Assembly (NCBI GenBank): GCA_951406725.2
Contig: OX597829.1
Span: 2,604,001 to 2,668,000 of the forward strand
Reading direction: 5' to 3'
DNA: 64,000 bases
Origin: Octopus vulgaris
Lineage: Eukaryota
The stretch's first letter is position 1, and every line of letters begins with the position of its first letter. The translations under genes were made by a program, and so were the position numbers. Below the pieces are notes generated by a model. The model had not been told where the DNA came from. It searched no databases and was given only the letters and a program-made list of their open reading frames with translations. Below are positions 6,415-51,770 of the stretch, one piece after another.

Positions 6415-8550
6415 CTAACATAGCTTATTACGACAGATGTAATTACTGAACCAGCTGTTCACTCCCCGAGAACTAAGGTGGTACTTTATTTTCAGATCTC
6501 GAGAACTTTGCGGAGATTTCTTGCATTGTCAAGCAATGCTGTTTGTCTGGATATTTTCATTCCTAACATTTCCAACCAATCTTTAATTTTTTTTACTCCT
6601 TTTTTTCCTAAGGCACCCACATTTATTGGAACGTTATACACCGTTTTCATTGGCCGCAGCTTCTTTATTTTTCTCCTCACAGTTTCATATCGCTGTCAGT
6701 TTTTCTCCTTTTTCGATGACTCTGCTGTCACTAGTGCAGACATGACTTTTCTTCCTTGACCACCAGCACAATATCCAGTTTCCGCTTGATCATGAAGTTC
6801 CAAAGGATTTCAACCCTGTCATTTTCTACCGAACGCTTCGCCTCATGTTCATACCATTTTCTTGTTCTTCCCAGTCTAAACTTGTTACATATGAAACTAG
6901 CTTGATGTGAGTATCTGATCTTGTACTTTCGGGGTACAAGAAAGCAATCACTCACTAGCCGTTGCTTTAATAATCCAGAATTCTACCAGTCAGAAACAAC
7001 AAGACGCAGACGTAAAATATATATATACTACTTTATTCTCTTTCTTGGTAACAATAACAATAAGTGTGTTATCTGATGTCCTTGGTTCGGGGCGCGCAAG
7101 GCTGAAAGTTAATCGATTGTAATATTTACAATGTTCAGCCGCTAAACCAGAAAGGGGTCAAGATGGCGTCGAACAGGGAAGTTGAATGTGGTCGGCAACA
7201 ATTTGGTTAAAGGCATTCGGCCGACTGCTGCTATCAACCGGAGAGAAAATATATCGTGACCGCCGCCTTCAATCGCTGGGTCCCAAGTCCCCGATGACTG
7301 GTGCTAGTGGTCAAACGTTCTACGACCCCCTTGCCTCGCTAACTACCACGATAGGCAAGCGGGTCGTGCTTCCGGTGGTTCGCGCATGCGCGAGAGGGCC
7401 CTTCCTTTCTCTGCCTTGGTAAAGGCACCAACACGCGCGAAATACAAATGGACGGTGCGCGAGCGCGCGCCGTTGTAGGATCACTACACATATTTCTTCC
7501 AGTGGACCATTCTGGCGACATTATCATGCCTCCTCTTGTATTCCTTCGGGGGTCAATTTGAAGCATTCACTTAAACTATCCCTGTCTCTCCAGTTTCACC
7601 GCACATTCTGTAGTTGTCTGATTCTATTGACTGATCGATTTTGTGCTTGTTGTAATTAGTTCTTAATGCTCGCTTTTGTGCTCTACATATCAAGATCTCC
7701 ATTTCAGATCTCAGATCGCTCTTTTGTAATTACAACTATCTTTTATCTGAGTATATGTCCTCTGATATCTCTCAAGATCTGATCATGAATCTTCTTATCT
7801 TTCCAGTTGTTTTTCCTATTCGCCTCTGTCTCTTTTGTAATTCATCTTCTCCTGGCTGTTTTTTTCTTTCTTTTCTGTGTAATAGTCTTGCCTCGCTTAC
7901 TTGTACGACTAATGATTCTTTTGCATTCTTTATATACCAAACAATATTGTTTTCCTCTGTCTGAATACAATCCTTAGAAAATACAATCCTTACAACATAT
8001 CAATCCTCGCTTTCCTTTCTTTTTAATTATGTGTAGCCTGTCAACATCACTTTTCAGAAGGAATGCACAGAGTATTGTTTCCTTGATTTCTGATCCAAGG
8101 ATTGTAGTTCCTCTCTTCTGCCATCGTATCGCTTTTGCTCCATACCTCGAGAGAGCCCATGATTTTATTGCTCGGAGCTTATTCAATTTAATTTTCAGAA
8201 TTAATTTCAACCTTCAGTAATGCTCTTGAGAGAATATCTTCTACATTTGGCTTTCCCTTAATTCGCCTACTTCCAATATAGTCAGACAACTTGTATCCTT
8301 TCTTGTCTATTCTCTTCATTACTTCTCTCGGAGGCAACTTCACACCATTCATTTTTTGAACTTTTCCTCGTTTGAGAATCACCACTTCGCCATTTTTCAC
8401 TTCAATCTAGTGTCCGTGCTAAAGCAATGCACTGTTTGAATCAGTGAATTCAGTTGGTTCGCATCTTTCCCGTAGAGTTTCAGGTCATCTATGAAAAGGA
8501 GGTGATTGATCTTCTCTTTTCTTTCCTTGAACTCTTAACCCAACTTTCGC
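6415..8550 (-). mobile_element. Decayed R4/Dong-like LINE (RT to REL endonuclease), interrupted by a solo LTR
   Basis: Motifs 'FIDDLKLYGKD' (~8490), 'KKGKRGLI', 'EYKRRHDNVARMVHW', 'KWYEHE', 'KLDIVLV' and 'VPINVGALG'. Confidence 0.85.
6892..7488 (-). mobile_element. Solo LTR (597 bp), probably Ty3/Gypsy-type
   Basis: TG...CA termini and a 4-bp TSD CATA (6888-6891 / 7489-7492); AATAAA on the minus strand at ~7035. Removing it rejoins the host LINE (HWK..NKF..KWYEH). Confidence 0.8.
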
Positions 8551-10302: not shown

Positions 10303-12384
10303 ACCTATTTCTTTACTACCCACAAGGGGCTAAACACAGAGGAGACAAACAAGGACAGACAAACGGGTTAAGTCGATTATATCGGCCCCCAGTGCATAAC
10401 TGGTACTTATTTAATCGACCCCGGGAGGATGAAAGGCAAAGTCGACCTCGGCGGAATTTGAACTCAGAACGTAACGGCAGACGAAATACCTATTTCTTTA
10501 CTACCCACAAGGGGCTAAACACAGAGGAGACAAACAAGGACAGACAAACGGGTTAAGTCGATTATATCGGCCCCCAGTGCATAACTGGTACTTATTTAAT
10601 CGACCCCGGGAGGATGAAAGGCAAAGTCGACCTCGGCGGAATTTGAACTCAGAACGTAACGGCAGACGAAATACCTATTTCTTTACTACCCACAAGGGGC
10701 TAAACACAGAGGAGACAAACATGGACAGACAAACGGGTTAAGTCGATTATATCGACCCCAGTGCATAACTGGTACTTATTTAATCGACCCCGGGAGGATG
10801 AAAGGCAAAGTCGACCTCGGCGGAATTTGAACTCAGAACGTAACGGCAGACGAAATAACTATTTCTTTACTACCCACAAGGGGCTAAACACAGAGGAGAC
10901 AAACATGGACAGACAAACGGGTTAAGTCGATTATATCGACCCCAGTGCATAACTGGTACTTATTTAATCGACCCCGGGAGGATGAAAGGCAAAGTCGACC
11001 TCGGCGGAATTTGAACTCAGAACGTAACGGCAGACGAAATACCTATTTCTTTACTACCCACAAGGGGCTAAACACAGAGGAGACAAACATGGACAGACAA
11101 ACGGGTTAAGTCGATTATATCGGCCCCCAGTGCATAACTGGTACTTATTTAATCGACCCCGGGAGGATGAAAGACAAAGTCGACCTCGGCGGAATTTGAA
11201 CTCAGAACGTAACGGCAGACGAAATACCTATTTCTTTACTACCCACAAGGGACTAAACACAGAGGAGACAAACAAGGACAGACAAACGGGTTAAGTCGAT
11301 TATATCGGCCCCCAGTGCATAACTGGTACTTATTTAATCGACCCCGGGAGGATGAAAGGCAAAGTCGACCTCGGCGGAATTTGAACTCAGAACGTAACGG
11401 CAGACGAAATACCTATTTCTTTACTACCCACAAGGGGCTAAACACAGAGGAGACAAACAAGGACAGACAAACGGGTTAAGTCGATTATATCGGCCCCCAG
11501 TGCATAACTGGTACTTATTTAATCGACCCCGGGAGGATGAAAGGCAAAGTCGACCTCGGCGGAATTTGAACTCAGAACGTAACGGCAGACGAAATACCTA
11601 TTTCTTTACTACCCACAAGGGACTAAACACAGAGGAGACAAACAAGGACAGACAAACGGGTTAAGTCGATTATATCGGCCCCCAGTGCATAACTGGTACT
11701 TATTTAATCGACCCCGGGAGGATGAAATGCAAAGTCGACCTCGGCGGCATTTGAACTCAGAACGTAACGGCAGACGAAATACCTATTTCTTTACTACCCA
11801 CAAGGGGCTAAACACAGAGGAGACAAACAAGGACAGACAAACGGGTTAAGTCGATTATATCGGCCCCCAGTGCATAACTGGTACTTATTTAATCGACCCC
11901 GGGAGGATGAAAGGCAAAGTCGACCTCGGCGGAATTTGAACTCAGAACGTAACGGCAGACGAAATACCTATTTCTTTACTACCCACAAGGGGCTAAACAC
12001 AGAGGAGACAAACAAGGACAGACAAACGGGTTAAGTCGATTATATCGGCCCCCAGTGCATAACTGGTACTTATTTAATCGACCCCGGGAGGATGAAAGGC
12101 AAAGTCGACCTCGGCGGAATTTGAACTCAGAACGTAACGGCAGACGAAATACCTACTTCTTTACTACCCACAAGGGACTAAACACAGAGGGGACAAACAA
12201 GGACAGACATAGGTATTAAGTCGATTACATCGACCCCAGTGCGTAACTGGTACTTATTTAATCAACCCCGGGAGGATGAAAGGCAAAGTCGACCTCGGCG
12301 GAATTTGAACTCAGAACGTAACGGCAGACGAAATACTGCTAAGCAATTCGCCCGGCGTGCTAACGATTCTGCCAACTCGCCGCC
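10303..12384 (-). repeat. Tandem array of 11 SINE-A units (184-185-bp period) capped by a single SINE head
   Basis: Units start at 10303, 10488, 10673, 10857, 11041, 11226, 11411, 11596, 11781, 11966 and 12151. The whole array is bounded by cttttga(c/g)agacacctat (10291-10308 / 12399-12416). Confidence 0.97.
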
Positions 12385-15189: not shown

Positions 15190-16388
15190 AAATTCGGTCA
15201 TACCTATTTCATTACTACCCACAAGGGGCTAAACAAATTCGGTCATACCTGCCTTCCCTTACTACCCACAAGGGGCCAAACAAATTCGGTCATACCTGCC
15301 TTCCCTTACTACCCACAAGGGGCCAAACAAATTCGGTCATACCTGCCTTCCCTTACTACCCACAAGGGGCTAAACAAATTCGGTCATACCTGCCTTCCCT
15401 TACTACCCACAAGGGGCCAAACAAATTCGGTCATACCTGCCTTCCCTTACTACCCACAAGGGGCTAAACAAATTCGGTCATACCTGCCTTCCCTTACTAC
15501 CCACAAGGGGCCAAACAAATTCGGTCATACCTGCCTTCCCTTACTACCCACAAGGGGCCAAACAAATTCGGTCATACCTGCCTTCCCTTACTACCCACAA
15601 GGAGCCAAACAAATTCGGTCATACCTGCCTTCCCTTACTACCCACAAGGGGCCAAACAAATTCGGTTATACCTGCCTTCCCTTACTACCCACAAGGGGCC
15701 AAACAAATTCGGTCATACCTGCCTTCCCTTACTACCCACAAGGAGCCAAACAAATTCGGTCATACCTGCCTTCCCTTACTACCCACAAGGGGCCAAACAA
15801 ATTCGGTCATACCTGCCTTCCCTTACTACCCACAAGGGGCTAAACAAATTCGGTCATACCTGCCTTCCCTTACTACCCACAAGGGGCTAAACAAATTCGG
15901 TCATACCTGCCTTCCCTTACTACCCACAAGGGGCCAAACAAATTCGGTCATACCTGCCTTCCCTTACTACCCACAAGGGGCCAAACAAATTCGGTCATAC
16001 CTGCCTTCCCTTACTACCCACAAGGGGCCAAACAAATTCGGTCATACCTGCCTTCCCTTACTACCCACAAGGGGCCAAACAAATTCGGTCATACCTGCCT
16101 TCCCTTACTACCCACAAGGGGCCAAACAAATTCGGTCATACCTGCCTTCCCTTACTACCCACAAGGGGCCAAACAAATTCGGTCATACCTGCCTTCCCTT
16201 ACTACCCACAAGGAGCCAAACAAATTCGGTCATACCTGCCTTCCCTTACTACCCACAAGGGGCCAAACAAATTCGGTCATACCTGGCTTCCCTTACTACC
16301 CACAAGGGGCCAAACAAATTCGGTCATACCTGCCTTCCCTTACTACCCACAAGGGGCCAAACAAATTCGGTCATACCTGCCTTCCCTT
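15190..16388. repeat. 47-bp minisatellite, ~25 copies, derived from the SINE-A 3' tail plus target-site sequence
   Basis: Unit aaattcggtcatacctgccttcccttactacccacaagggg(c/t)caaac-like; the first unit retains the near-native SINE tail acctatttcattactacccacaaggggctaaac. Confidence 0.97.
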
Positions 16389-26057: not shown

Positions 26058-26913
26058 CATACATACATACATAGATACATACATACATACATACATACAT
26101 ACATACATACATACATACATACATACATACATACATACATACATACATACATACATACATACATACATACATACATACATACATACATACACACATACAT
26201 ACACACATACCTACATACACACATACATACATACATACATGCATACATACATACATACATACATACATACATACATACACACATACATACATACACACAT
26301 ACATACATACATACACACATACATACATACATATATACATACACACACATACATACATACACACATACATAGATACATACATACATATATACATACACAC
26401 ATACATACATACATACATACATACATACATACATACATACATACATACACACATACATACACATACATACATACACACATGTACATACATACATACACAC
26501 AGATACATAGATTCATACACACACACATACATACATACTTACATACATATACATATATATACATACATACACATATACATACATTCATATATACATACAC
26601 ACACATACATACATACATACATACATACATACATACATACACGCACGCACATACATACATACATGCATACATACATACATACATACATACACACACATAC
26701 ATATATACATGCACATACATACATACATACATACATACATACATACATACATACATAATACATACATACATACACACACACATAAATACATACATGCATG
26801 CATACATACATACATACATACATACATGCATACATACATACATACATACATACACACATAGGAAAAAAACTACATACACACATACATACATACATATACA
26901 CATACATACATAC

Positions 26914-26960
<47 letters not shown>

Positions 26961-27433
26961 CATGCATACATACATACACACACACATATACATACATACA
27001 TAGATACACATATACATACATATATACATGCATACATACATACACACACACATATACATTAAGACACACACATACATACATTCATATATACAAACATACA
27101 CACACATACTTACATGTTGAAGAGCGTAAGCTCGAAACGTAAAAGACTTGTTTTATTTATATTCCTGAGCGCCATACTAATACAATTGTTTGTTTGTATT
27201 CCACCTGCCTTCGTCTTTTGTTTATTTTCATAAAGCTTCCCGTTACATACATACATACACATACATACATACACACATACATACATACATACATACATAC
27301 ATACATACATACATACATACATACATACATACATACACATACACACATACATACATACACATACATACATACACATATACTTACATACATATATACATGC
27401 ATACATACATACATACATACATACATACATACA

Positions 27434-27467
<34 letters not shown>

Positions 27468-28791
27468 CATACATACAAACATACATACATACATACATTC
27501 ATACATACACACATACATACATACATACATATATATATATATACATACATACACATATACATACATACATACATATATACATACATACATACACACACAT
27601 ATATACATAGATACACACACATACATATATGCATACATACATACATACATACATACACACACATACATAAATACATGCACATACAGACATACATACATAC
27701 ATACACACATACATACACACATACATACATACATATATACATACATACATACACACACACACATACATACACATACATACATACATACACACATACATAC
27801 ATACATACATATATACATACATACATACACATATACATACATATATACATACATTCATATATACATACATACATATATATATATATACATACATACACAT
27901 ATACATACATACATACATATATACATACATACATACAAACACACATACATACATACATGCATACATACATACATACACACACATACATACATACACACAC
28001 ATACATACATACATACCTACATACATACATAATACATACATACATAATACATACATGCATACATACATACATTCATACATGCATACATACATACATACAT
28101 ACATACATACGTACGTACGTACATACATACATACATACATACGTACATACATACATACATGCATGCATGCATACATACATACATACGTACATACATACAT
28201 ACATACATACATACATACATACATGCATGCATACATACATACATACATACTTACATACATACATACGTACGTACGTCCATACATACATGCATGCATGTAT
28301 ACATACATACATACATGCATACATACACACATACATACATACATACATACATACATGCATGCATGCATACATACATACATACATGCATGCATACATACAT
28401 ACATACATACATACACACATACACATACATGCATGCATACATACATACATACATACATACATGCATACATACATACATACATACATACATGCATACATAC
28501 ATACATTCATATATACATACATACATTCATACATACATACACACACATACATACATACATACGTACGTACGTACATACATACATACATAAGTACATACAT
28601 ACATGCATGCATACATACACACATACATACATACATACATACATACATACATACATACATACATACATACATACATACATGCATGCATACATACATACAT
28701 ACATACTTACATACATACATACGTACGTACGTACATACATGCATGCATGCATGCATACATACATACATACATACATGCATGCATACACACA

Positions 28792-28825
<34 letters not shown>

Positions 28826-29186
28826 CATGCATGCATGCATGCATACATACATACATACATACATACATGCATGCATACATACATATATACATACATACAT
28901 ACATACATACATACATACATACATACATACATACATACATACATACATACATACATACATACATACATACATACATACATACATACATACATACATAAAT
29001 ACTTACATAGATGCATGCACACATACATACATACATACATACATACATACATACATACATACATACATACATACATAAATACTTACATAGATGCATGCAT
29101 ACATACATACATACATACATACATACATACATACATACATACATACATACATACATACATACATACATACATACATACATACATAC

Positions 29187-29217
<31 letters not shown>

Positions 29218-29290
29218 CATACATACATACATACATAAATACTTACATAGATGCATGCATACATACATACATACATACATACATACATAC

Positions 29291-29321
<31 letters not shown>

Positions 29322-29391
29322 CATACATAAATACTTACATAGATGCATGCATACATACATACATACATACATACATACACACACACATACA

Positions 29392-29423
<32 letters not shown>

Positions 29424-29706
29424 CATACATACATACATACATAAATACATACATACATACATACTTACATACATACATATATACATACATACATACACAC
29501 ATACATACACACACACATACATGCATACATACATACATACATACATACATACATACATGCATACTTACATACATACATACATACACACATACATACATAC
29601 ATACATACATACATACATACACACATACATACACACACACATACATACATACATACATATATACATACATACATACATACATACATACATACATACATAC
29701 ATACAT
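26058..29706. repeat. ~3.6-kb degenerate (CATA)n tract, interrupted at ~27113-27244 by a Penelope-like pLTR fragment
   Basis: Direct reading; the insert contains tgttgaagagcgtaagctcgaaacgta. Confidence 0.95.
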
Positions 29707-29707
29707 G

Positions 29708-30413
29708 CAGGGTATTTCCTGAAGAAATTTTTGCTTTCTACTTGGTAGTATTGAAAGGGTGTTTTGTCTTTTACGATCTTCTTCCCACTGGATAGGACCA
29801 TCAATTCGCATGTGTATTACGACCAGTTGGACAAATCAAACGCAGCCGTCCAAAAGCATTCAGCGCTTGCTAATCGTGAGGACACTGTCTTTCATTACTA
29901 CAATGCAAGACCGCGCACTTCTTTGCTGACATGATAGAAGTTAATGGGGATTGACTGAGGAGTTTTGCCAGACCTTCCATATTTGCCCCATCTTGCGCTT
30001 TCATATTTTCACCTGTTTTGGTCTCTTCAAATTTCAATGGCAGGCTACACATTCAACTCTGAAGAGGATGTAAAAATTCATCTGGAAAAGTTTTTCGCCA
30101 GTAAAGACTGGAAATTTCCTCTGAGTGGGGAATAATGGATCTGCCCACACTATGGCAGAATATATTGGAACGAAACAGTAATTACGGAGATGTACTTGCA
30201 CAGAGAGTGACTCGATCTGAGATCGTGTGCTGGAACGAAAACAATTGCAGCGTGGAAGCCTTCAACATTTAAATTCAATTTGTCAAAATATTTTCCTCGC
30301 TTTCAGACCGCGACCTCTTCACTCACAAAATTCCGTTCTGCATCTCAGTAATTGTTTAAGACTTATTTTCGCTTAAAAACAAAAATGAACGATATCTTTG
30401 GCCGACCTAATAT
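29708..30413 (+). mobile_element. Decayed mariner transposon 3' half with TIR, interrupted at ~30190-30360
   Basis: 'FHYYNARPRTS' (HDNARPH) and 'PYLPHLALSYFHLFWSLQ' (YSPDLAPSDFHLF); right TIR ...tttggccgacctaata. Confidence 0.85.
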
Positions 30414-31254
30414 TTAAGCTCACACACACACACACACACACACACACGAATGTATATGCGCTTGTGTGTGTATATACTATAGTTTTTATTTCCAGAATAT
30501 TTGATATATTTTCACAGTTCAAAAGCAACTTGTAATAAATTTACATGACATACCCGTCCACACCCCAAAGCTATTATCGTGATAACACTTACGTACAGCT
30601 GATTATGATCTAGACTGTGGCTTTGGTATCAACACCACATAGTTTACTGCCATATCTAGATATTAGCATTCCTATCACTTCTCTGCTTCAGAGATTTTGT
30701 TATTTTTATTATTTTCTCCAATTTCCGATTTGCAAAAGTCATTCAGAGTGCGATTTAATATATCGGAGTTTTTTTTCCGGTTAGACTACGTTGGTTTCTA
30801 TTCCTGACGTTCGGAAAATTTTCCATGACATAAGTAATTTGCTCCGATGTTTTGTTGCGCTCGACAACTTTCTTGGATGTATATTGTTAATAAAAACGAA
30901 TATTCAAAGAATTACATTCCGAGGAACTTCAATCCAATTTCCATAACTTTTCATGTAGGCAGACTTATTGCCATGGACGTTCTTCATTGTGTCATTGCGA
31001 GTAGGTTCTACTTGAATAATACGACATTAAAAGGTTGTTGGAATCTATATTAACTCTCTGCCTTCTTATTTTTGTTCTATGAACGGCCGTTCAAAATCAC
31101 TTTTGATGAGGAAATGTTATTGAGGTAGTGCTTAAAAGATATCAACTCGTGTCTATTTGAATGGCCAAAAAGATGTATTACAACTGATTTCGAGTTCTAA
31201 CATATATTATTAATAATATTATAAGTCACTGATCTATAAAATGCGCTTTACGTG

Positions 31255-32011
31255 AAGTGTACTCATTCCGATCGCGGGGCCTCGACAGAGTCCCGCGTCG
31301 TTATTTTTCGTCACTACCTCCCCGTGCCGGGAGTGGGTAATTTGCGCGCCTGCTGCCTTCCTTGGATGTGGTAGCCGTTTCGCATGCTCCCTCTCCGGAA
31401 TCGAACCCTGATTCCCCGTTACCCGTTGCCACCACGGTCGGCACTGACCGGGCCGTCGACAGTTGATAGGGCGGACTCGCGGGGGACCCGTCGCGCGAAG
31501 GCTAGTGCGATACTAGCCCGTGCGATCGTACTGACAGTTATCCAGAGTCACCAAAATCGAAGGACGTGAAGCCGCCGCACGCCTAAGACCCGCGCGCGGA
31601 AGGCGCGGCGGCTGCTGCGACGGCCCGTACGCGTCGGTCTCAGTCTAATATTTGCGCCGCGACCAATGCGGAAGGCCGACCGTATCGTCGCGACCGGGAG
31701 GGACGGGCGCGGATGCGCCGCCCCAGGTCCGGCCGAGCGGACGCCGGCGGCGAACGACGGCGACGGCTGCCGAACGCCGTTTTCGAGCCCGACGCCCGGG
31801 TGCGACCTGCGATCGCGGCTTCGGTTGCATGTATTAGCTCTAGAATTGCCACAGTTATCCACTCTCCTCGCGGTGGAAGAATACGGTCCCGAGGATTAGG
31901 TCCGGTTCCTGAGCCATTCGCGGTTTCACCATTCGTTTACGGCATGAACTTACACTTGCATGGCTTAAGCTTTGAGACAAGCATATGACTACTGGCAGGA
32001 TCAACCAGGTA
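31255..32011 (-). rRNA. 18S rRNA: 18S rRNA 5' fragment (orphan/pseudogenic, 3'-truncated) with a GC-rich expanded V2 region
   Basis: Starts TACCTGGTTGATCCTGCCAGTAG at 32011; contains the universal motifs CTACCACATCCAAGGAAGGCAGCAGGCGCGCAAATTACCCA and GGAATGAGTACAC. Confidence 0.97.
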
Positions 32012-34400
32012 TCACCGACGTTACGTTTCGAGAGAACGAAGCGCGCGCGGCGGCGGCGGAAGCCCGGGAAGCAGCCGCCCGCCGCCGACGATCGGAAACG
32101 AGAGCGAAAGGAATCGGAGGGGCCGAAAACAGGGGGCGCGAGGGCGCTCGCGAGTTCGGCCGCCGTTCGTATACGCGCGCGCCAGCTCCTCCTCCTCCTC
32201 GTCCCGGAGGAGGAGAAGAAGGCGAAAACGACACGGGTCGACGCGCGAAGAAGCGTTCGCGATACAAAAAACGGTTTGCGATCCGACTGCCGCACACCGG
32301 GGCCGCTGCGGACGGGCTCCGGTGCGGGTCGTTTTGAAGTGGGGGCCGGTTCCGGGCGGAAGAGGGAAGAGGAGAAGGCGAAGAAGGCCAGCGACTAGGT
32401 CGGCAGACGAGAGGGGCAGCGGCGATTGGCGCGGGCCCGCTGCAGCTTTTAGACTCGCCCGGCGCCCTACGCGTCGGTGGTGGTCGTCGTCGCTTCCTCC
32501 ACCCGATCCTTTCGAAACGGCTGCGGCGAACTGCGTCCGGACTGCGGTCAACGAGCGAGTGCCATGACGGTGGTCGCCACGAAAACGACGCGCGCCAAGG
32601 CGGGGTGATGCCGGGAAGGAGAAGAAAAAGCTGCGGAAACGCTACGAGGCAGCGAAACCCGGAGTTGAAGCCACGGTTCCGTCCAGGGAAGAAGGGACGG
32701 ACACGGCACCGCTCTCTTTCGGAGACGCCGCGTCGCCTGTGGCGGAACGGGAAGCGACGGCTAGCCCGTCCGCCGCGCCGGCGCCGACGCGACACGAGGT
32801 CAGCGGCGTAACCTGACCGGGTCCTCGGCGGCGAAGACGAGGCCGGGGGTCGGAAGGAAGAAAAGAAAAAAAAGAAAACGCGGTAACGAGAAGCGGTTCG
32901 ATTGCGGGAGGACGAACCGGCGAGCGTGAAGAGGCGGGCAGACGCGGGCGTCGAGGGAGCGCGTCTAAAAGGCGGGCGGTGTGGCGACGGCGGCAGACAT
33001 TCGAGGACGCGCCAGCCGTGTAGAGTCGACCTTGCACCGGCAATAAGGGAGCTAACCGTTGGCAGAAAGGAGCGCCGACAACATCCCTTCCAGGCGGTCC
33101 ACCTATGCCGTTCGGCCACGACCCTACGTAAGGAGCGCTTGTGCGGCGGTTGCCGGCGGGCGAGCGAGGAAAGGCGGGCAAACGCGTGCGTCGAAAGGGT
33201 CGGGCGAACGCAGCGGCGTCTGAAAGGCGGGCGAAGGCGTGCGTCGAAAGATGCGGGTAGAACGCAGCGTCTAATAGGCGGGCGTGAAGAAGCGGACGTC
33301 CAGAGGCGGGCGAAGGCGGGCGAAGGCGGGCGAAGGCGAGCTTCAAAAGGCGGGCAAACGCGGGCGTCAACGGGCGGGCGAACGCAGCGTCTGAAAGGCG
33401 GGCGGTTCGGCGGCGGAAATTCGAGGACGCACCGGCCGTGTAGAATCGATCTTGCACCGGCAAACGGGGAGCTAACCGTCATCAGAAAAGGAGCTACGAG
33501 GACATCCTTCCGAGACGCTAACCTATGCCGATCAACCACAACCCTACATATTAGTCTGGACCCCCTCGGGGTGCGACGGTCACCTAGAGGCGTGACTATC
33601 CAGCCGGGGCCGATCCGTTTGCTTACGGTCCGAGCACCTCCTTGCTCACGGGTCGGACCACGTCGCTGTTTTTACCCGGTGCACATCGCCACGCACTCCC
33701 GGCGACTGACGGCATCGATCGCGCCTACGTCCACGTGTACGTGGGCGAGAGCGCGAGTTTCGCTTAAGTCCCAATCGAGCCTCGCGGTAGCGCGGCGGAG
33801 CTGCGGGCGAAGGCGGTAGAAAGCGGGCGAATGCCCGCCGCAATCGGCCGTTGCCTGCACCGGCCTCACTTTGTCATCTTTCGGGAATTTACGGGACGGA
33901 CCGCGTCACCGCATCGAACGCCCGCACGTCGCGACATCGGTCGCGGCTACGTCCACGCGTACGCGGGCGAGACCGCACGCTCAAGTTCGTGCTTCCGATT
34001 TCACGCACGGTAGGGCGGCGGAGACGCGGGCGACCGGCGCACGCCTTCCGCCGCTACCTCGTGCTAGCCGCAGTTTGTCATCTTTCGGGATTTTTACGGG
34101 ACGGACCACGTACTCCTATCGAGCGCCGGTATCTCGTGAACGCCTTCCGGCACCGGTGGCGGCTACGTCCACGCGTACGGGGGTCGAACCGCGAGCTTAG
34201 GTTCGTTCTTTCGATTTCGGGCACGTCAGGGCGGCGGAGCAACGGGCTACCGTGCTAGCCGCAGTTTGCCATCTTTCGTGTTTTTACGGGACGGACCACG
34301 TCGCCGTATCGACGGCGTGCATCTCGTGAACGCCTTCCGGCGCCCGGCGGCGCGACGCCGAGCGAACGGCGACGCGGCCGCGCGGGAGCGAGGCGACACA
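32012..34400 (-). other. rDNA 5'ETS and intergenic-spacer segment with subrepeats
   Basis: Very GC-rich and contiguous with the 18S 5' end. Contains a 420-bp-period duplication (33001 / 33421), (GGCGGGCGAA)n, and three ~200-bp repeats containing tttg(t/c)catctttcg..tttacgggacggacc. Confidence 0.8.
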
Positions 34401-35591
34401 CAGGCCCGACCGACCCGGTCCTCGGAGCCAATCCTTCTTCTGAAGGTACGGATCCATTTTGCCGACTTCCCTTACCTACATTGGCGCTATCGACGAGAGG
34501 CTGTACACCTTGGAGACCTGCTGCGGATGGTGGGTACGGACCGACTCGAGAGCTGCGATTCGTTACGGACCCGGATTTTCCAGGGCCGCCGAGAGCGCAC
34601 CGGACGCCGCCCGAGACGCGGCGCTCTACAGGTACCATATCCGTATCTCCGGACGAGCCGATTCCACGGACGCGGTCCTTTACGAAGAAGAGAGAACTCT
34701 TCCCGGGGCTCCCGGCAACGTCTCCGGGCTCGCTTGCGTTGCCGCTGCTTCGCCCGGCCGCCGGCTTCGACGACGGACGCGCTGCTAGGAAGAGCACGCC
34801 GCGTTCCCGCCGACGGACGGGCACTCTCCGAGTTCGGGTTAGGGAATATTAACCCGATTCCCTTTCGATGCGAGGCCGGCCGCGTAAATCGATATCGAAC
34901 CGCGCGAGAGCAGTTCTTTTCTTTCTAAACGACGGATCCGGCGCCTTTCGTGGAAGCTTTCGCCCGCTTCTTAGGACCGACTGACCCGTGCTCGACCGCC
35001 GTTGGCACGGAACCCTTCTCCACTTCGGTCTTCGAAGGTCTCGTTCGAATATTTGCTACTACCACCGAGATCTGCACCCGCGGTCGGCTTCACCCGGGCT
35101 CGCGCCCGCGGCTTCCATGCACGCCGCGGCGCCCTCCTACTCGACCGGGCATCGGAAAGTCGCCTCGCCGGCGATCGCGCAACCTGTCGCCCGGCCGGTC
35201 CGGCATCGGTCGCTCGCTCCAGCGCCATCCATTTTCGGGGCCGGTCGATTCGGCAGGTAAGTTGTTACACACTCCTGAGCGGATTCCGACTTCCGTGGCC
35301 ACCGTCCTGCTGTCTATATCGACCGACACCCTTTCGGGGATCTAATGGGCGAAGCGTAGGGCACCTTAGCCGGACGTTCGGTTCATCCCACATCACCAGT
35401 TCTGCTTACCAAAAGTGGCCCACTTGGCACCGTGCATTCGTCGTCGCATAACGGCGGCCGCCTCCGATCGGGAGAGGAGCGGCCCGTTTCGCCCGTTCCG
35501 AGTTCGAGAGTAGATCGAGGCCGTCAACGTCCCCGGGGCCTCCAGTCGTTTGCTTTACCGGACGGAATTGCGTGTCGTTCTCCCGCTGGCG

Positions 35592-35634
<43 letters not shown>

Positions 35635-36222
35635 CGGCTCGATTGGTCTTTCGCCCCTACACCCGGTTCCGACGATCGATTTGCACGTCAGAGGCGCTTC
35701 GGACTTCCACCAGAGTTTCCTCTGGCTTCGTCCCGACCGGGCGTGGATCGCCATCTTTCGGGTCCCCGGCCGCCTGCTACACCTGAGTCGGAGCGGGAAC
35801 GCCGGACGCGAACGTCGCGGCGAACGCGCGGACCCGACCCGGGAACGATGCTTCGAAGCGCCGTCCCGCCGAAGCGAGACGGCGACGTCGTGTCACGTTC
35901 TCGCTTTCGCTGTGCCGTCGGAGTTCGCGAAGTGAAAGGCTCCAACGACTCGCAGTCGACTGGGACTCCTCGGTCCGTGTTTCAAGACGGGTCGGGTAGG
36001 TTGCCGATGCTCGTCGCTGACCGGCGGCAGCGGGCGGCTTTTCGGGCGGAAGGTGTCCCGCGACCGCAACGCGCGTCGCCCCCTTGCGAGGGTTTCCGCG
36101 CAGTCGCGGCGCGCGGGCGGCCGCGTCGCTCGCGACCTCCGGAAAGAGGCCGCGCGCGACTCGCTGCGTCGTTCGTGCTAAGGGCGAGGTGCGTTTGCCC
36201 GTCTCCGTCGGTTAGCCGTGCC
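34400..36222 (-). rRNA. 28S rRNA: 28S rRNA internal fragment (within D2 to the start of D8), truncated at both ends
   Basis: Conserved blocks GACCCGTCTTGAAACACGGACC, CCGAAGTTTCCCTCAGGATAGC, CCACTTTTGGTAAGCAGAACTGG, CGAAAGGGAATCGGGTTAATATTCC and GTAAGGGAAGTCGGCAAAATGGATCCGTA. Confidence 0.97.
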
Positions 36223-36569
36223 TGCGCTTTACGTTCTATAAAATGTTTTCGTTCGGATGAGATATACTTTGGTTACGTGTTCTTTGTCATATGTTCCATC
36301 AATGTACATGTCCGGCCATTGATAGAGATGTTCGCTCGGTTTATAGCCTCATTTCTTACAAAACCAGAGAGGGATATTTTTCTTGGCAAAACTGTAGTCC
36401 TACATCCTTTAAAAGTATCAGATATTGGACATCTAATTTCAGGTTGTTGATGAAAAGGCTATGTTAGGATGATTTTCCCGTCTTCTAGTAATCCTTCAGA
36501 TTTCCTCAATAAGAAGGAAAGAGGGTTCAGTGCTAGCGTCATTGAGGGATTGTCTGGTTTTTCCTACCA

Positions 36570-38110
36570 GCTACACTTCTAGGTATTCTCGTTTTGTGGC
36601 CTGTCGAGAGCAAGAGGCGATATAGCAGTTTTATTCAGAAAATCTTTGGGTCTCAAAGTAAGGGCAATCTTCTCGGACCCGAACGCTAGGTTGGTGGTCC
36701 TAGATGTGAATGGCGGTGAAGGTGGCACCTTTGGATTGGTGGCTGTGTATGTTCCGACAGGGGCTGGGAGGCCAGATTTCATCAGGCATCTAGAAATGGT
36801 CTCGGGAATGACTCGCACTTTACTACTAGTGGGGGACTGGAATAGTATTTTGGACGCGCGGAAAGACTGTGTGGGTCTTGTACATAGAAAAAGTGGGTTT
36901 AAAAGCATCGGAAACCTGCTTAGAAACTTCCAACTGTTTAACAGGTATAGACTGGATTTCCCCGGTGTGCCAGTGTGGTCATGGAGCAATAGGTCATTCA
37001 GATAGTATCTAGATAGAATATTTGTTTGGTCAGCGGATAAGGATCGTCTGGGTGTACATTATTCAAATTTTGGGGCTACACGAGTCGATTTAGATAGGAT
37101 TCGTAGATAGGGACCCGGTTAATGGAAGTTTAATGCATACTTTCCGGAGAGCAAAGACTACAGGGACCGGATTAATGAACTAGTTAAGCGGCAGTTGAGT
37201 GATGCAATCGTCAACAGTCGGTGGTGGATTACCCTGAAGAGGGCAATTAGAACAGAATCGATAGAGTTCAGCAAAGATTAGCAATAGAAAGAAACAGATT
37301 AGAACTAGTGGGCGAACTAGAAGAGGCGATTAGTAAAGGCATCGCGACTGACGTGCTAGCGGCAAGAATGGCTCTTGACCATTTCTTTGAGGCGAAACAC
37401 GAAGGTTGCATTGCCAATGCTAAGACCCGTGCTCTAAAACATGAGAGAACTAAAGCCGTCCGATGGGTTCGAACGGTGGAGACGCGACGTGGAAATAAAA
37501 CCACGATCGGGTCTTTGATGGATCAGGACGGGCGCGTGCTACATGGTTCTGAGCAAATGTGTATAGCCTTACAGCAGCACTTCGCGCAGTTGTTTGGAGG
37601 GGGCGTGGGTCGACGATGGTAACGTACTTTAGTTCGTACTTCGATGGCCTGCCGCGGCTCTCGGCAGCGGACGCGAGGTTCTGCGAAAAGCCGATAACGG
37701 CCACTGAAATACGAGAGGCGGTGAGCGATTGCACAAGTCGCAAATCGCCAGGTTTAGATGGTCTGCCCTATGAATTCTATATATTTATACCAGATATGTT
37801 TGGCGAATCCTTGGCAGACGTTTACCGCAACTAGCAACGGAACGGGAGAACTCCTAGTGCTGTTAGTCGGGGTGTGGTGACACTGCTAAAGAAGGATGCC
37901 AAGAGTGGGGACATACTAAGGGATTTTCGGTCCATAATTCTGCTAAACACAGAGCTTAAGACTATAGCCTAGGTGTTAGCTAAAAGGTTGGTGATGGTCG
38001 TTGGTAGTCAAGTAGAGGAAGCACAAAGGTGCGCAATCCCAAATAGGTCCATCCACGACGACCTCCACCTTATTCGGGACATCATAGAGAGGAATGGGAC
38101 TAATGCTTTG
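36570..38110 (+). mobile_element. Decayed L1/Tx1-clade LINE ORF2 (APE endonuclease to start of RT)
   Basis: Motifs 'VAVYVP', 'LLLVGDWNSILD', 'YLDRIF', 'WKFN', 'KSPGLDGLPYEFY' and 'AIPNRSIHDDLHLIRDII', with stops and frameshifts. Confidence 0.9.
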
Positions 38111-40874: not shown

Positions 40875-41293
40875 GGGCGGCGAGCTGGCAGAGTGGTTAG
40901 CACGCCGGGCGAAATGCTTAGCAGTATTTCGTTTGTCGTTACGTTCTCAGTTCAAATTCTACCGAGGTCGACTTTGCCTTTCATCCTTTCGGGGTCGATT
41001 AAATAAGTACCAGCTACGCACTGGGGTCAATATAATCGACTTAATACCTATGTCTGTCCTTGTTTGTCCTCTCTGTGTTTAGCCCCTTGTGGGTAGTAAA
41101 GAAATAGGTATTTCATCTGCCTCTACGTTCTGAGTTCAAATTCCGCCGAGGTCGACTTTGCCTTTCATCCTTTCGGGGTCGATTAAATAAGTACCAGTTA
41201 CGCACTGGGGTCGATATAATCGCCTTAATCTGTATGTCTGTCTTTGTTTCTCCCCCCTGTGTTTAGCCCTTTGTGGGTAGTAAAGAAATAGGT
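40875..41293 (+). mobile_element. SINE-A dimer (full unit plus headless unit)
   Basis: Junction gaaataggt|atttc at ~41109; single TSD tattagagcgatga (40861-40874 / 41297-41310). Confidence 0.92.
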
Positions 41294-41993
41294 ATATATT
41301 AGAGCGATGAAGTGGTTTATAAAGAACTTCCCCTTTTAATAATCCTTTCTACTGAAGTTACCAGGCCTGAAATATGTGGGGATGGGAAATCGATCACATG
41401 AACCTCAGTATGTAACTGGTACTTAATGTATCGTGCTGGAAGAATGAAAGGCAAAGTTGACCTCGGCAGAATTTGAAATCGGAGCGTAAGTTTTCCTTTG
41501 TAAATAATACTTTCCAATTTTAATACGGTAGAGATGGCAGAAACGTTAACATGCCGAACAAAATATTTTGCGGCATTTCGTCCGTCTTCCCGTTCTGAGT
41601 TTATATTCCGACGAGATCAGCCTTACAGTTTATCCTTTCGGGGCCTTATAAAATGAATACCAATCGAACCCCTACCCTAAATACAAGCCTTCTGCAAAAA
41701 TTAGAAGCCGATATATTAAGTAAACGGGTGTGATTCAAAAATACAAATGAAAAGCAATAACAATAACGACAACAAAAAAAAAACTCAGTGTTTATATCTC
41801 TGTTACTTGCATTTTTATTTCCTCCTCCCACCACCACAAAAAAACGCACTGGATGAAAAAACAAATTAAATACAGTTGTCTCCCTTGTCTAAGAGAAGTT
41901 GTTTCCCTTATTCTATGAAAATCAATCATCTGTAATCCGGTATATATACACAACGCACACACAAATATACATACATACCTACAATATGTATAA

Positions 41994-47212: not shown

Positions 47213-47298
<86 letters not shown>

Positions 47299-47627
47299 GT
47301 ATGTATGTATGTATGTATGTATGTATGTATGTATGTATGTATGTATGTATGTATGTATGTATGCATGTATGTATGTATGTATGTATGTATGTATGTATGT
47401 ATGTATGCATGTATGTATGTATGCATGCATGTATGTATGTATGTATGTATGTATGTACATATGTATGTATGTATGTATTTATGTATGTATGTATGTATGT
47501 ATGTATGTATGTATTTATGTATGTATGTATGTATGTATGTATGTATGTATGTATGTATGTATGTATGTATGTATGTATGTATGTATGTATGTATGTATGT
47601 ATGTATGTATGTATATATGTATGTATG

Positions 47628-47661
<34 letters not shown>

Positions 47662-47795
47662 TGTATGTATGTATGTATTTATGTATGTATGTATGTATGT
47701 ATGTATGTATGTATGTATGTATGTATGTATGTATGTATGTATGTATGTATGTATGTATGTATGTATGTATTTATGTATGTATGTATGTATGTATG

Positions 47796-47829
<34 letters not shown>

Positions 47830-48563
47830 TGTATGTATGTATGTATGTATGTATGTATGTATGTATGTATGTATGTATGTATGTATGTATGTATGTATGT
47901 ATGTATGTATGTATGTATGTATGTATGTATGTATGTATGTATGTATGTATGTATGTATGTATGTATGTATGTATGTATGTATGTATGTATGTATGTATGT
48001 ATGTATGTATGTATGTATGTATGTATGTATGTATGTATGTATGTATGTATGTATGTATGTATGTATGTATGTATGTATGTATGTATGTATGTATGTATGT
48101 ATGTATGTATGTATGTATGTATGTATGTATGTATGTATGTATGTATGTATGTATGTATGTATGTATGTATGTATGTATGTATGTATGTATGTATGTATGT
48201 ATGTATGTATGTATGTATGTATGTATGTATGTATGTATGTATGTATGTATGTATGTATGTATGTATGTATGTATGTATGTATGTATGTATGTATGTATGT
48301 ATGTATGTATGTATGTATGTATGTATGTATGTATGTATGTATGTATGTATGTATGTATGTATGTATGTATGTATGTATGTATGTATGTATGTATGTATGT
48401 ATGTATGTATGTATGTATGTATGTACATATGTATGTATGTATGTATTTATGTATGTATGTATGTATGTATGTATGTATGTATGTATGTATGTATGTATGT
48501 ATGTATGTATGTATGTATGTATGTATGTATGTATGTATGTATGTATGTATGTATGTATGTATG

Positions 48564-48595
<32 letters not shown>

Positions 48596-49469
48596 TGTAT
48601 GTATGTATGTATGTATGTATGTATGTATGTATGCATGCATGTATGTATGTATGTATGTATGTATGTATGTATGTATGTATGTATTTATGTATGTATGTAT
48701 GTATGTATGTATGTATGTATGTATGTATGTATGTATGTATGTATGTATGTATGTATGTATGTATGTATGTATGTATGTATGTATGTATGTATGTATGTAT
48801 GTATGTATGTATGTATGTATGTATGTATGTATGTATGTATGTATGTATGTATGTATGTATGTATGTATGTATGTATGTATGTATGTATGTATGTATGTAT
48901 GTATGTATGTATGTATGTATGTATGTATGTATGTATGTATGTATGTATGTATGTATGTATGTATGTATGTATGTATGTATGTATGTATGTATGTATGTAT
49001 GTATGTATGTATGTATGTATGTATGTATGTATGTATGTATGTATGTATGTATGTATGTATGTATGTATGTATGTATGTATGTATGTATGTATGTATGTAT
49101 GTATGTATGTATGTATGTATGTATGTATGTATGTATGTATGTATGTATGTATGTATGTATGTATGTATGTATGTATGTATGTATGTATGTATGTATGTAT
49201 GTATGTATGTATGTATGTATGTATGTATGTATGTATGTATGTATGTATGTATGTATGTATGTATGTATGTATGTATGTATGTATGTATGTATGTATGTAT
49301 GTATGTATGTATGTATGTATGTATGTATGTATGTATGTATGTATGTATGTATGTATGTATGTATGTATGTATGTATGTATGTATGTATGTATGTATGTAT
49401 GTATGTATGTATGTATGTATGTATGTATGTATGTATGTATTTATGTATGTATGTATGTATGTATGTATG

Positions 49470-49531
<62 letters not shown>

Positions 49532-51418
49532 TGTATGTATGTATGTATGTATGTATGTATGTATGTATGTATGTATGTATGTATGTATGTATGTTTGTAT
49601 GTATGTATTTATGTATGTATGTATGTATGTATGTATGTATGTATGTATGTATGTATGTATGTATGTATGTATGTATGTATGTATGTATGTATGTATGTAT
49701 GTATGTATATATGTATGTATGTATGTATGTATTTATGTATGTATGTATATATGTATGTATGTATGTATGTATGTACGTATGTGCGTATGTATGTATGAAT
49801 GTATGAATATATGTATGTATGTGTGTGTGTGCGTATGTATGTATGTATGTATGTATGTATGTATGTATGTATGTATGTATGTATGTATGTATGTATGTAT
49901 GTATGTATGTATGTATGTATGTATGTATGTATGTATGTATGTATGTATGTATGTATGTATGTATGTATGTATGTATGTATGCATGTATGTATGTATGTAT
50001 GTATGCATGTATGTATGTATGCATGTATGTATGTATGTATGTATGTATGTATGTATGTATGTATGTATGTATGTATGTATGTATGTATGTATGTATGTAT
50101 GTATGTATGTATGTATGTATGTATGTATGTATGTATGTATGTATGTATGTATGTATGTATGTATGTATGTATGTATGTATGTATGTATGTATGTATGTAT
50201 GTATGTATGTATGTATGTATGTATGTATGTATGTATGTATGTATGTATGTATGTATGTATGTATGTATGTATGTATGTATGTATGTATGTATGTATGTAT
50301 GTATGTATGTATGTATGTATGTATGTATGTATGTATGTATGTGTGTATGTATGTATGTATGTATGTATGTATGTATGTATGTATGTATGTATGTATGTAT
50401 GTGTGTGTGTATGTATGTATGTATGTATGTATGTATGTATGTATGTATGTATGTATGTATGTATGTATGTATGTATGTATGTATGTATGTATGTATGTAT
50501 GTATGTATGTATGTATGTATGTATGTATGTATGTATGTATGTATGTATGTATGTATGTATGTATGTATGTATGTATGTATGTATGTATGTATGTATGTAT
50601 GTATGTATGTATGTATGTATGTATGTATGTATGTATGTATGTATGTATGTATGTATGTATGTATGTATGTATGTATGTATGTATGTATGTATGTATGTAT
50701 GTATGTATGTGTATGTATGTATGTATGTATGTATGTATGTATGTATGTATGTATGTATGTATGTATGTATGTGTGTATGTATGTATGTATGCATGTATGT
50801 GTGTATGTATGTATGTATGTATGTATGTATGTATGTATTTATGTATGTATGTATGTATGTATGTATGTATGTATGTATGTATGTATGTATGTATGTATGT
50901 ATGTATGTATGTATGTATGTATGTATGTATGTATGTATGTATGTATGTATGTATGTATGTATGTATGTATGTATGTATGTATGTATGTATGTATGTATGT
51001 ATGTATGTATGTATGTATGTATGTATGTATGTATGTATGTATGTATGTATGTATGTGTGTATGTATGTATGTATGTATGTATGTATGTATGTATGTATGT
51101 ATTTATGTATGTATGTATGTATATATGTATATATGTATGTATGTATGAATGTATGTATGTATGCATGTATGTATGTATGCATGTATGCATGTATGTATGT
51201 ATGTATGTATGTATGTGTGTATGTATGTATGTATGTATGTATGTATGTATGTATGTATGTATGTGTGTATGTATGTATGTATGTATGTATGTATGTATGT
51301 ATGTATGTATGTATGTATGTATGTGTGTATGTATGTATGTATGTATGTATGTATGTATGTATGTATGTATGTATGCATGCATGTATGTATGTATATATAT
51401 ATATACATAATACATACA

Positions 51419-51451
<33 letters not shown>

Positions 51452-51470
51452 ATGCATCCATGTATGTATG

Positions 51471-51504
<34 letters not shown>

Positions 51505-51610
51505 TGCATGCATGTAAGTATGAATGTATGTATGTATGTATGTATGTATGTATGTATGTATGTATGTATGTATGTACGTATGTATGTATGAATGTATGAA
51601 TATATGTATG

Positions 51611-51642
<32 letters not shown>

Positions 51643-51770
51643 CATGCATGTAAGTATGAATGTATGAATGTATGTATGTATGTGTGTGTGTGCGTATGTA
51701 TGTATGTATGTATGCATGTATGTATGTATGTATGCATGCATGCATGTATGTGTGTGCGTATGTATGTGTA
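47213..51770. repeat. ~4.5-kb (TATG)n tract preceded by (CA)n(TA)n
   Basis: Direct reading of the sequence. Confidence 0.98.

What the first reader, a model, noticed from the sequence alone, without database searches (positions are those of the whole stretch)
31233..36245. Orphan rDNA block in permuted order, bracketed by nested A-B...B-A direct repeats
Seen: on the minus strand the order is partial 28S, spacer repeats, 5'ETS, partial 18S. It therefore spans the boundary of two tandem units, with the 28S 3' third and probably much of the IGS deleted (fusion near 34340-34400). The left flank reads TCTATAAAATG (31233-31243) overlapping TGCGCTTTACGT (31242-31253); the right flank reads TGCGCTTTACGT (36223-36234) then TCTATAAAATG (36235-36245). 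Inference: an 11-bp TSD plus a 12-bp terminal redundancy of the insert. This fits integration of an extrachromosomal rDNA circle or retroposition of a spacer-spanning transcript, not a normal pre-rRNA retrocopy.
Basis: partly seen in the sequence, partly recalled or inferred. Interest (0 to 1): 0.75.

Follow-up and report, generated by a model that had tools for sequence, protein, structure and literature searches.

The report
Ribosomal DNA patch with crossed fillers
A 5-kb rearranged piece of ribosomal DNA sits inside a dead jumping gene and is missing in other individuals; the short repeats at its ends are likely repair fillers, each copied from the opposite end while a DNA break was patched, not the target duplication of a jumping gene, so this is likely a known kind of scar that only mimics one.

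Summary
The block is real: both repeats lie where stated, the order is 28S-spacer-ETS-18S on the minus strand (27), the 12-mer is native 28S (11), and the 28S/spacer fusion has a 7-bp microhomology (12). One run bridges the right junction; three other runs hold what look like empty alleles (17). The 'target-site duplication' probably is not one: empty-allele contigs match only from 36244, their lengths fit about 22 extra bases (17, 60), and 27 of 30 paralogs of the host LINE put 22 bases there, 0 of 30 fit a simple duplication (54). Best reading: a break lost about 22 bp and captured a linear rDNA piece; the left break end copied 10 nt of the insert's far end, that end copied 9 nt of the left break end, three of four joins using TG. 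Such fillers are described for polymerase-theta capture of T-DNA (PMC10923293). Whether the donor was a circle, a deleted unit or two fragments is open. Boundary-spanning orphans recur here; the nested fillers were seen in 0 of 34 others. The scan noted another rDNA repair patch in this genome. Ordinary kind, unusually clean example.

The parts
30950..31243 (-). Left flank: old, decayed non-LTR retrotransposon remnant (host of the insertion)
   Evidence: 64-73% identity to paralogs; register with 30 paralogs
31233..31243 (+). Left break end (motif A, TCTATAAAATG); ancestral position of this motif; template of the right filler
   Evidence: aligns to paralogs 22 nt before the right-hand TG in 27 of 30
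31244..31253 (+). Filler 1: 10-nt direct copy of the insert's 28S D2 end, entered through TG (31242-43) and left through T/TG (31253-54)
31253..32012 (-). 18S rRNA 5' part (unit 1-777), with one private substitution and a 17-bp deletion at 31759 absent from 8 of 8 native copies aligned
32013..33549 (-). 5' external transcribed spacer (its upstream limit is inferred)
   Evidence: 92-94% to assembled copies
33542..33600 (-). Predicted RNA polymerase I start region; the spacer subrepeats of the native unit begin their match at 33542 (spacer-promoter-like duplicates; start-site motif recalled, not tested)
   Evidence: (repeat matches start at 33542)
33550..34341 (-). Intergenic spacer upstream of the predicted start (about 790 bp)
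   Evidence: up to 98.4% to native spacer
34335..34341 (.). 28S/spacer fusion at a 7-bp exact microhomology (TTCCGGC) with looser likeness beside it; about 8.8 kb of the unit skipped, R2 site included
   Evidence: no second copy of the fused form among 38 scored candidates
34335..36234 (-). 28S rRNA middle part, D2 to about unit 7130; variant type shared with two R2-family-inserted orphans
36223..36234 (+). Motif B, native 28S D2 end of the insert; template of filler 1
   Evidence: 8 of 8 native copies
36235..36243 (+). Filler 2 (inferred): 9-nt direct copy of the left break end, blunt on its left, joined to the right flank through TG (36244-45)
   Evidence: absent from the aligned part of empty-allele contigs in X3, X19, X2
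36244..36420 (-). Right flank: continuation of the same LINE remnant after an inferred loss of about 22 bp

Best explanation
This is a 5-kb rearranged rDNA fragment lying in an old LINE and absent from other individuals, likely captured as DNA at a germline double-strand break by polymerase-theta-type end joining, which likely removed about 22 bp of target and wrote two short fillers, each copied from the opposite junction. Inferred steps: (1) a linear donor with ends in 28S D2 and in 18S, already carrying or acquiring the 28S/spacer fusion at a 7-bp microhomology (circle about 0.4, deleted array unit about 0.35, two fragments joined during capture about 0.25); (2) the left break end primes at TG 12 nt from the donor's D2 end, copies 10 nt to that end, lets go and joins the 18S end through T/TG; (3) the D2 end copies the last 9 nt of the left break end and joins the right break end through TG. 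The A-B...B-A frame is thus two crossed templated insertions that mimic a target duplication plus terminal redundancy. The piece is most likely functionless.
For: Shown: both copies of B end at the same base and native 28S continues differently; three of four joins have TG on both partners (right-hand TG is in the empty-allele contigs); contigs of X3, X19 and X2 match from 36244 only and carry 835-836 further letters, which puts their start inside the CA run at 30430-30431 if 22 nt were lost, but across that run at 30406-30407 under a simple duplication; best register of the left end against 30 paralogs is +22 in 27, +20/+21 in 3, simple duplication in 0. Spacer DNA upstream of the predicted start and no poly(A) favour a DNA donor (sequence; same argument in PMC5381670, passages). 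Other orphans show forward skips with 2-7 bp overlaps or short fillers, two of them from 28S into spacer/ETS (L052, L069), and 33 of 34 lack a long end repeat. [quoted passage not shown] A POLQ/HELQ-type helical domain is in the genome.
Against: The letters of the empty allele left of 36244 were not shown, so the 22-bp loss is inferred; one substitution at 36243 could also clip the alignment there. The paralogs are related to one another and only about half identical to the flank (mean 20.2 of 40 at +22 against 17.2 at the duplication register), so 27 of 30 is not 27 independent votes. The B-to-A join has no microhomology. No sequence feature names the enzyme; PF21099 does not separate POLQ from HELQ. 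The left junction was not seen in reads. The copied-then-jumped strand is the antisense strand, which also suits reverse transcription.
Confidence: 0.66

Rival explanations
1. One replicating strand did it all (MMBIR/FoSTeS): the broken left end invaded rDNA at D2, switched to 18S, to 28S at the 7-bp microhomology, back to its own left flank and then to the right flank.
For: Same junctions and microhomologies; micro-duplications and micro-deletions at circle integration sites have been read as MMBIR (PMC7450558, passages).
Against: Needs five switches and gives no reason why two separate passes stop at the same D2 base unless the donor had a free end there, which is the end-joining model.
Confidence: 0.12
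2. A non-LTR reverse transcriptase (R2 is in this genome) primed on the break, copied 10 nt to the 5' end of an rRNA-sense RNA, jumped end-to-end to its 3' end and copied a read-through transcript that spans spacer and promoter.
For: Polarity fits cDNA; R2 RT jumps between template ends by microhomology (PMC4117753, passages); an R2-type element with an RT domain sits at the 28S R2 site in L033; the skip removes the 28S 3' end and any terminator behind it.
Against: About 790 bp of spacer upstream of the predicted start; no end at a mature rRNA terminus or at the R2 site; no poly(A); inferred target loss; the right filler still needs a DNA template.
Confidence: 0.11
3. One reading: a closed 4,981-bp rDNA circle was opened by a staggered cut and pasted into a staggered target cut, giving an 11-bp target duplication and a 12-bp terminal redundancy.
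For: Permuted order is the mark of circle-mediated duplication (PMC7188851, part 1 of 4 read); target duplications of 1-11 nt occur in 17 of 71 captured mitochondrial fragments (PMC2567098, passages); a first gapped alignment could be drawn without a gap at the site.
Against: Opening exactly at a closure join has a chance near 0.002-0.003; empty alleles match only from 36244; 0 of 30 paralogs prefer the duplication register.
Confidence: 0.08
4. Assembly chimera.
For: rDNA pieces are often misplaced in assemblies (own knowledge); the only bridging run may be the source sample.
Against: A 512-nt contig of X1 matches 36205-36716 without a difference at depth 42.7; private substitutions and a private 17-bp deletion; fillers copied across 5 kb are not an assembler's error.
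Confidence: 0.02

Closest known systems
Polymerase-theta capture of T-DNA at Cas9 breaks with templated fillers (PMC10923293; passages seen)
   Same: [quoted passage not shown]
   Different: Here a natural, heritable event in an animal, with endogenous rDNA as cargo and both kinds of filler in one allele; the enzyme is not shown.
Class 2 templated sequence insertion polymorphisms (PMC5110952; passages seen)
   Same: Polymorphic patch from a distant locus, no poly(A), microhomology and (inferred) micro-deletion.
   Different: 5 kb, rearranged, contains spacer DNA; those authors favour an RNA template; flanking repeats here would have scored it as class 1.
Circle-mediated duplications with permuted order (PMC7188851 part 1 of 4; PMC7450558 passages)
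   Same: Permuted order, closure by microhomology, micro-rearrangements at the integration site.
   Different: The donor is a tandem array, so the order needs no circle; about 4.4 kb of the would-be circle (rest of 18S, ITS, 5.8S, 28S 5' end) is absent.
Dispersed rDNA pseudogenes with spacer (PMC5381670; passages) and numt capture (PMC2567098; passages)
   Same: rDNA with spacer outside the arrays; passive capture at breaks, sometimes with short target duplications.
   Different: This copy is young and has crossed fillers rather than simple blunt or microhomology joins.

Membership tests
TPRT retrocopy / class 1 insertion | True target-site duplication (single copy, no loss, in the empty allele) | tested here: not met
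   Empty-allele contigs match from 36244 only; +22 register in 27 of 30 paralogs; letters of the empty allele not seen, so indirect
TPRT retrocopy / class 1 insertion | 3' poly(A) or simple-repeat tail | tested here: not met
   Sense 3' end at 31253 runs straight into the filler and flank
TPRT retrocopy / class 1 insertion | Colinear with a transcript, ends at RNA termini | tested here: not met
   Holds about 790 bp upstream of the predicted start; ends at unit 777 and 5220; start site itself inferred
Pol-theta-type (TMEJ) capture | Short microhomology at joins | tested here: met
   TG at three of four end joins, 7 bp at the internal fusion; one join blunt
Pol-theta-type (TMEJ) capture | Templated fillers of 6 bp or more from nearby or partner ends | tested here: met
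   10-nt copy of the insert's other end; 9-nt copy of the opposing break end (inferred)
Pol-theta-type (TMEJ) capture | Loss of target bases | tested here: inconclusive
   About 22 bp inferred from three indirect lines
Pol-theta-type (TMEJ) capture | Genetic dependence on POLQ | not testable with these tools
   Only a POLQ/HELQ-type domain was found in the genome
eccDNA-mediated duplication | Permuted order with one closure junction | tested here: inconclusive
   Order and 7-bp junction present, but a tandem donor gives the same junction by deletion
eccDNA-mediated duplication | Insert ends adjacent in the donor (circle cut once) | tested here: not met
   Ends are unit 777 and 5220, 4.4 kb apart
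R2-linked relocation of rDNA units | An end at the 28S R2 site or an R2 piece at the end | tested here: not met
   R2 site is at about unit 7830-7840; no end or join of this insert lies there

The most novel reading that the evidence does not exclude
The two fillers are one event: the left break end and the donor's D2 end, which have the same strand polarity, exchanged their terminal strands in a four-way intermediate, so that each was extended to the very end of the other before being joined to its final partner. Such a reciprocal end swap would forge a perfect-looking target duplication plus terminal redundancy over a hidden deletion, so some insertions filed as retroposed or circle-derived because of such repeats would be repair captures; and the cargo would be a circle shed from a now-rare, R2-bearing class of rDNA units.
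Probability: 0.2. Interest if true: 0.55.

Novelty: new member of a known kind. Interest (0 to 1): 0.3.

Why it matters
It is a clean natural germline example of DNA capture with both described kinds of cross-junction filler in one allele, and a warning for annotation: a perfect flanking repeat is not a target-site duplication until the empty allele is read. It is also a presence/absence marker and preserves an rDNA variant that is now rare in the arrays. No function is suggested.

Tried and rejected
Search of the own assembly for an empty haplotype with either flank: only the locus itself and distant paralogs. Search for a second copy of the fusion: none among 38 scored of 225 candidates, which is no proof of absence because arrays are collapsed. 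My first reading (true TSD plus reverse-transcriptase end jump) rested on a gapped alignment with five paralogs that showed no gap at the site; it was dropped after the ungapped offset tests; the two registers were close (33 ranked first in 4 and 9 first in 1 of the 6 tests on three informative paralogs; 33 and 9 tied or nearly so in the rest). The left junction and the letters of the empty allele were not seen in reads; that leaves the size of the target loss open. RNA folding around the ends gave nothing telling. C1b and C2 as direct donors: rejected, C1b lacks the spacer part and C2 lacks ETS and the 18S 5' end in the stretches fetched. Eight paper searches gave no report of reciprocal fillers on an rDNA orphan or of cephalopod rDNA orphans in their listings; the library lacks most subscription papers and no supplements were opened, so this is weak evidence of absence.

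Full report
Setting. The window is G000:C16:2604001-2668000 of a 2.8-Gb animal assembly; earlier notes of the scan call the genome an octopus, which I did not test. A GC-rich block stands out at 31.2-36.2 kb and Rfam finds partial 18S and 28S on the minus strand. A native array lies at C20:23.94-24.08 Mb with units of about 18.3 kb; one unit of 18,291 bp served as reference.

Observation. The insert maps to unit 777->1 (18S), 18291->about 15900 (ETS and spacer) and about 7130->5220 (28S). The fusion sits on an exact 7-bp microhomology at 34335-34341 and skips about 8.8 kb, 2.2 kb of it 28S. The 12-mer is native 28S D2 in 8 of 8 native copies read, and native 28S goes on with GGAGCG. At the left junction the 28S copy and the 18S start share TG, and the target end shares TG with the start of the 12-mer.

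Is it real, and how old? Of 4 runs laid on the right junction, X1 (possibly the source sample) has one exact 512-nt contig across it at depth 42.7, with no break where an empty allele would branch. X3 and X19 (same organism code, other studies) and X2 (another organism code) have contigs that match the right flank and go on for 835-836 letters of something else; these runs hold 0.79-0.80 of the words of the left flank, so I read them as empty alleles. The insert has 1 private substitution in 760 bp of 18S and 3 in about 1,690 bp of 28S compared, and a private 17-bp deletion. It is young and polymorphic.

The 11-mer is probably not a target-site duplication. Three lines. (a) All three empty-allele contigs start matching at 36244, not 36235. 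(b) Their left parts would start at 30430-30431, inside the CA run where a contig is expected to break whatever the run's length, if 22 bases were lost; under a simple duplication they would have to cross that run and start at 30406-30407 in all three (the expectation is my inference). (c) The flanks are an old non-LTR retrotransposon. With the right flank anchored, the last 40 bases of the left flank fit best 22 bases further away in 27 of 30 paralogs, 20-21 in 3, and at the duplication register in 0; the paralogs were the best 30 of 40 listed matches and are related, the means are 20.2 against 17.2 of 40, and a smaller test with 4 paralogs was close, so this is support, not proof. A single substitution at 36243 could explain (a) alone but not (b) and (c).

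Mechanism. With about 22 bp lost, the frame reads: left break end A, a 10-nt copy of the insert's far (D2) end, the insert, a 9-nt copy of A, right break end. Each filler is a direct copy that stops at the physical end of the other molecule. A closed circle opened at random would stop at its own join about once in 400 (12 of 4,981 positions, my arithmetic), so the 28S/18S join was most likely made at the break. [quoted passage not shown] The genome has a POLQ/HELQ-type domain. Shown: the sequences, the microhomologies, the polymorphism. Inferred: the target loss, the order of steps, the enzyme, a DNA rather than RNA donor.

The donor. The 28S/spacer junction arises equally from circularising about 9.5 kb (spacer to mid-28S), from deleting 8.8 kb between two units, or from joining two fragments at the break; sequence cannot tell. 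No second copy of the fusion was found. The 28S part carries a variant block (34888-34922) found only in 2 of 13 other copies compared, C2 and C1b (3 substitutions against 15 or more); both carry an R2-family insert at the R2 site. G at 36142 is shared with the same two, is nearly absent from the summed depth of all 4 runs, and in X1 lies on a contig of depth 116.5, near three times single copy. So the donor was likely an rDNA subtype that is now rare; a link to R2-inserted units is a lead from two cases only.

How special? I tested the ends of 34 other rDNA-bearing loci for exact repeats within 40 bp (14, 20; chosen from the hit lists, not all hits; multi-stretch and R2-interrupted loci L033-36, L040-41, L044, L046, L055-57 left out; 3 of the 34 had one end at the edge of the stretch). 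None has the nested frame; 1 (L070) has a 16-bp direct repeat with an A-rich stretch. Internal skips with 2-7 bp overlaps or 3-15 bp fillers are common in 12 multi-piece loci, and L052 and L069 also run from 28S into spacer or ETS across the unit boundary. So the permuted order is a recurring product of rDNA fragment capture here, and only the crossed fillers are unusual.

Rivals. Serial template switching by one strand (0.12), reverse-transcriptase end jumping on a read-through RNA (0.11; R2 RT does jump, PMC4117753 passages), the opened circle with a true duplication (0.08; even then a short duplication would not imply retroposition, PMC2567098 passages), and misassembly (0.02).

Comparison and verdict. 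It fails the tests for a TPRT retrocopy, for a once-cut circle and for R2-linked relocation. Dispersed rDNA with spacer is known (PMC5381670 passages). Eight paper searches showed no report of this exact symmetric frame, a weak negative; no supplements were read. New member of a known kind; interest 0.3.

Noticed in passing
L033 2624-7200 (C2:103.40 Mb): Near full-length R2-type element with RT domain at the 28S R2 site of an orphan unit; reading frames split.
   Followed up: partly
L035 7926-9680; L057 681-2428: 1.75-kb insert at the R2 site with the same 5' and 3' ends in several orphans; matches the non-autonomous element noted earlier by the scan.
   Followed up: no
L041, L044, L046, L047, L050, L052, L067: Many orphans end or break at unit 7813-7841, at or next to the R2 site.
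   Followed up: no
L068 2670-3188 (C4:165.63 Mb): A 28S piece at the centre of an inverted duplication: the left flank is the reverse complement of the right flank over the 40 bases printed; fold-back product or assembly artefact.
   Followed up: no
L070 3268-3512 (C11:13.31 Mb): 217-bp sense 28S piece followed by 12 A-rich bases and a 16-bp direct repeat; looks like a true retrocopy.
   Followed up: no
L037 5098-5645 (C2:110.71 Mb): 28S orphan made of two overlapping pieces in opposite orientation.
   Followed up: no
L058 4659-5548: Orphan that starts at the 18S 5' end (unit 1-914), possibly RNA-derived.
   Followed up: no
L022 (C20:24.048 Mb): An array unit with an internal duplication of about 520 bp in the 28S; variant unit or assembly error.
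   Followed up: no
window 36650-38100: A second, younger-looking LINE with endonuclease- and RT-like reading frames on the plus strand, 400 bp right of the insert (family named from recall only).
   Followed up: no
window 29710-30412: Mariner-like transposase remnant ending next to the CA run (likeness recalled, not tested).
   Followed up: no
window 10303-12336 and 15190-16388: Tandem arrays of 185-bp (11 copies) and 47-bp (26 copies) units, 98% alike, related to the dispersed repeat at 40940-41295.
   Followed up: no
window 26058-29706 and 47268-51767: Very long (CATA)n/(TATG)n arrays of 3.6 and 4.5 kb in opposite orientation on either side of the region.
   Followed up: no
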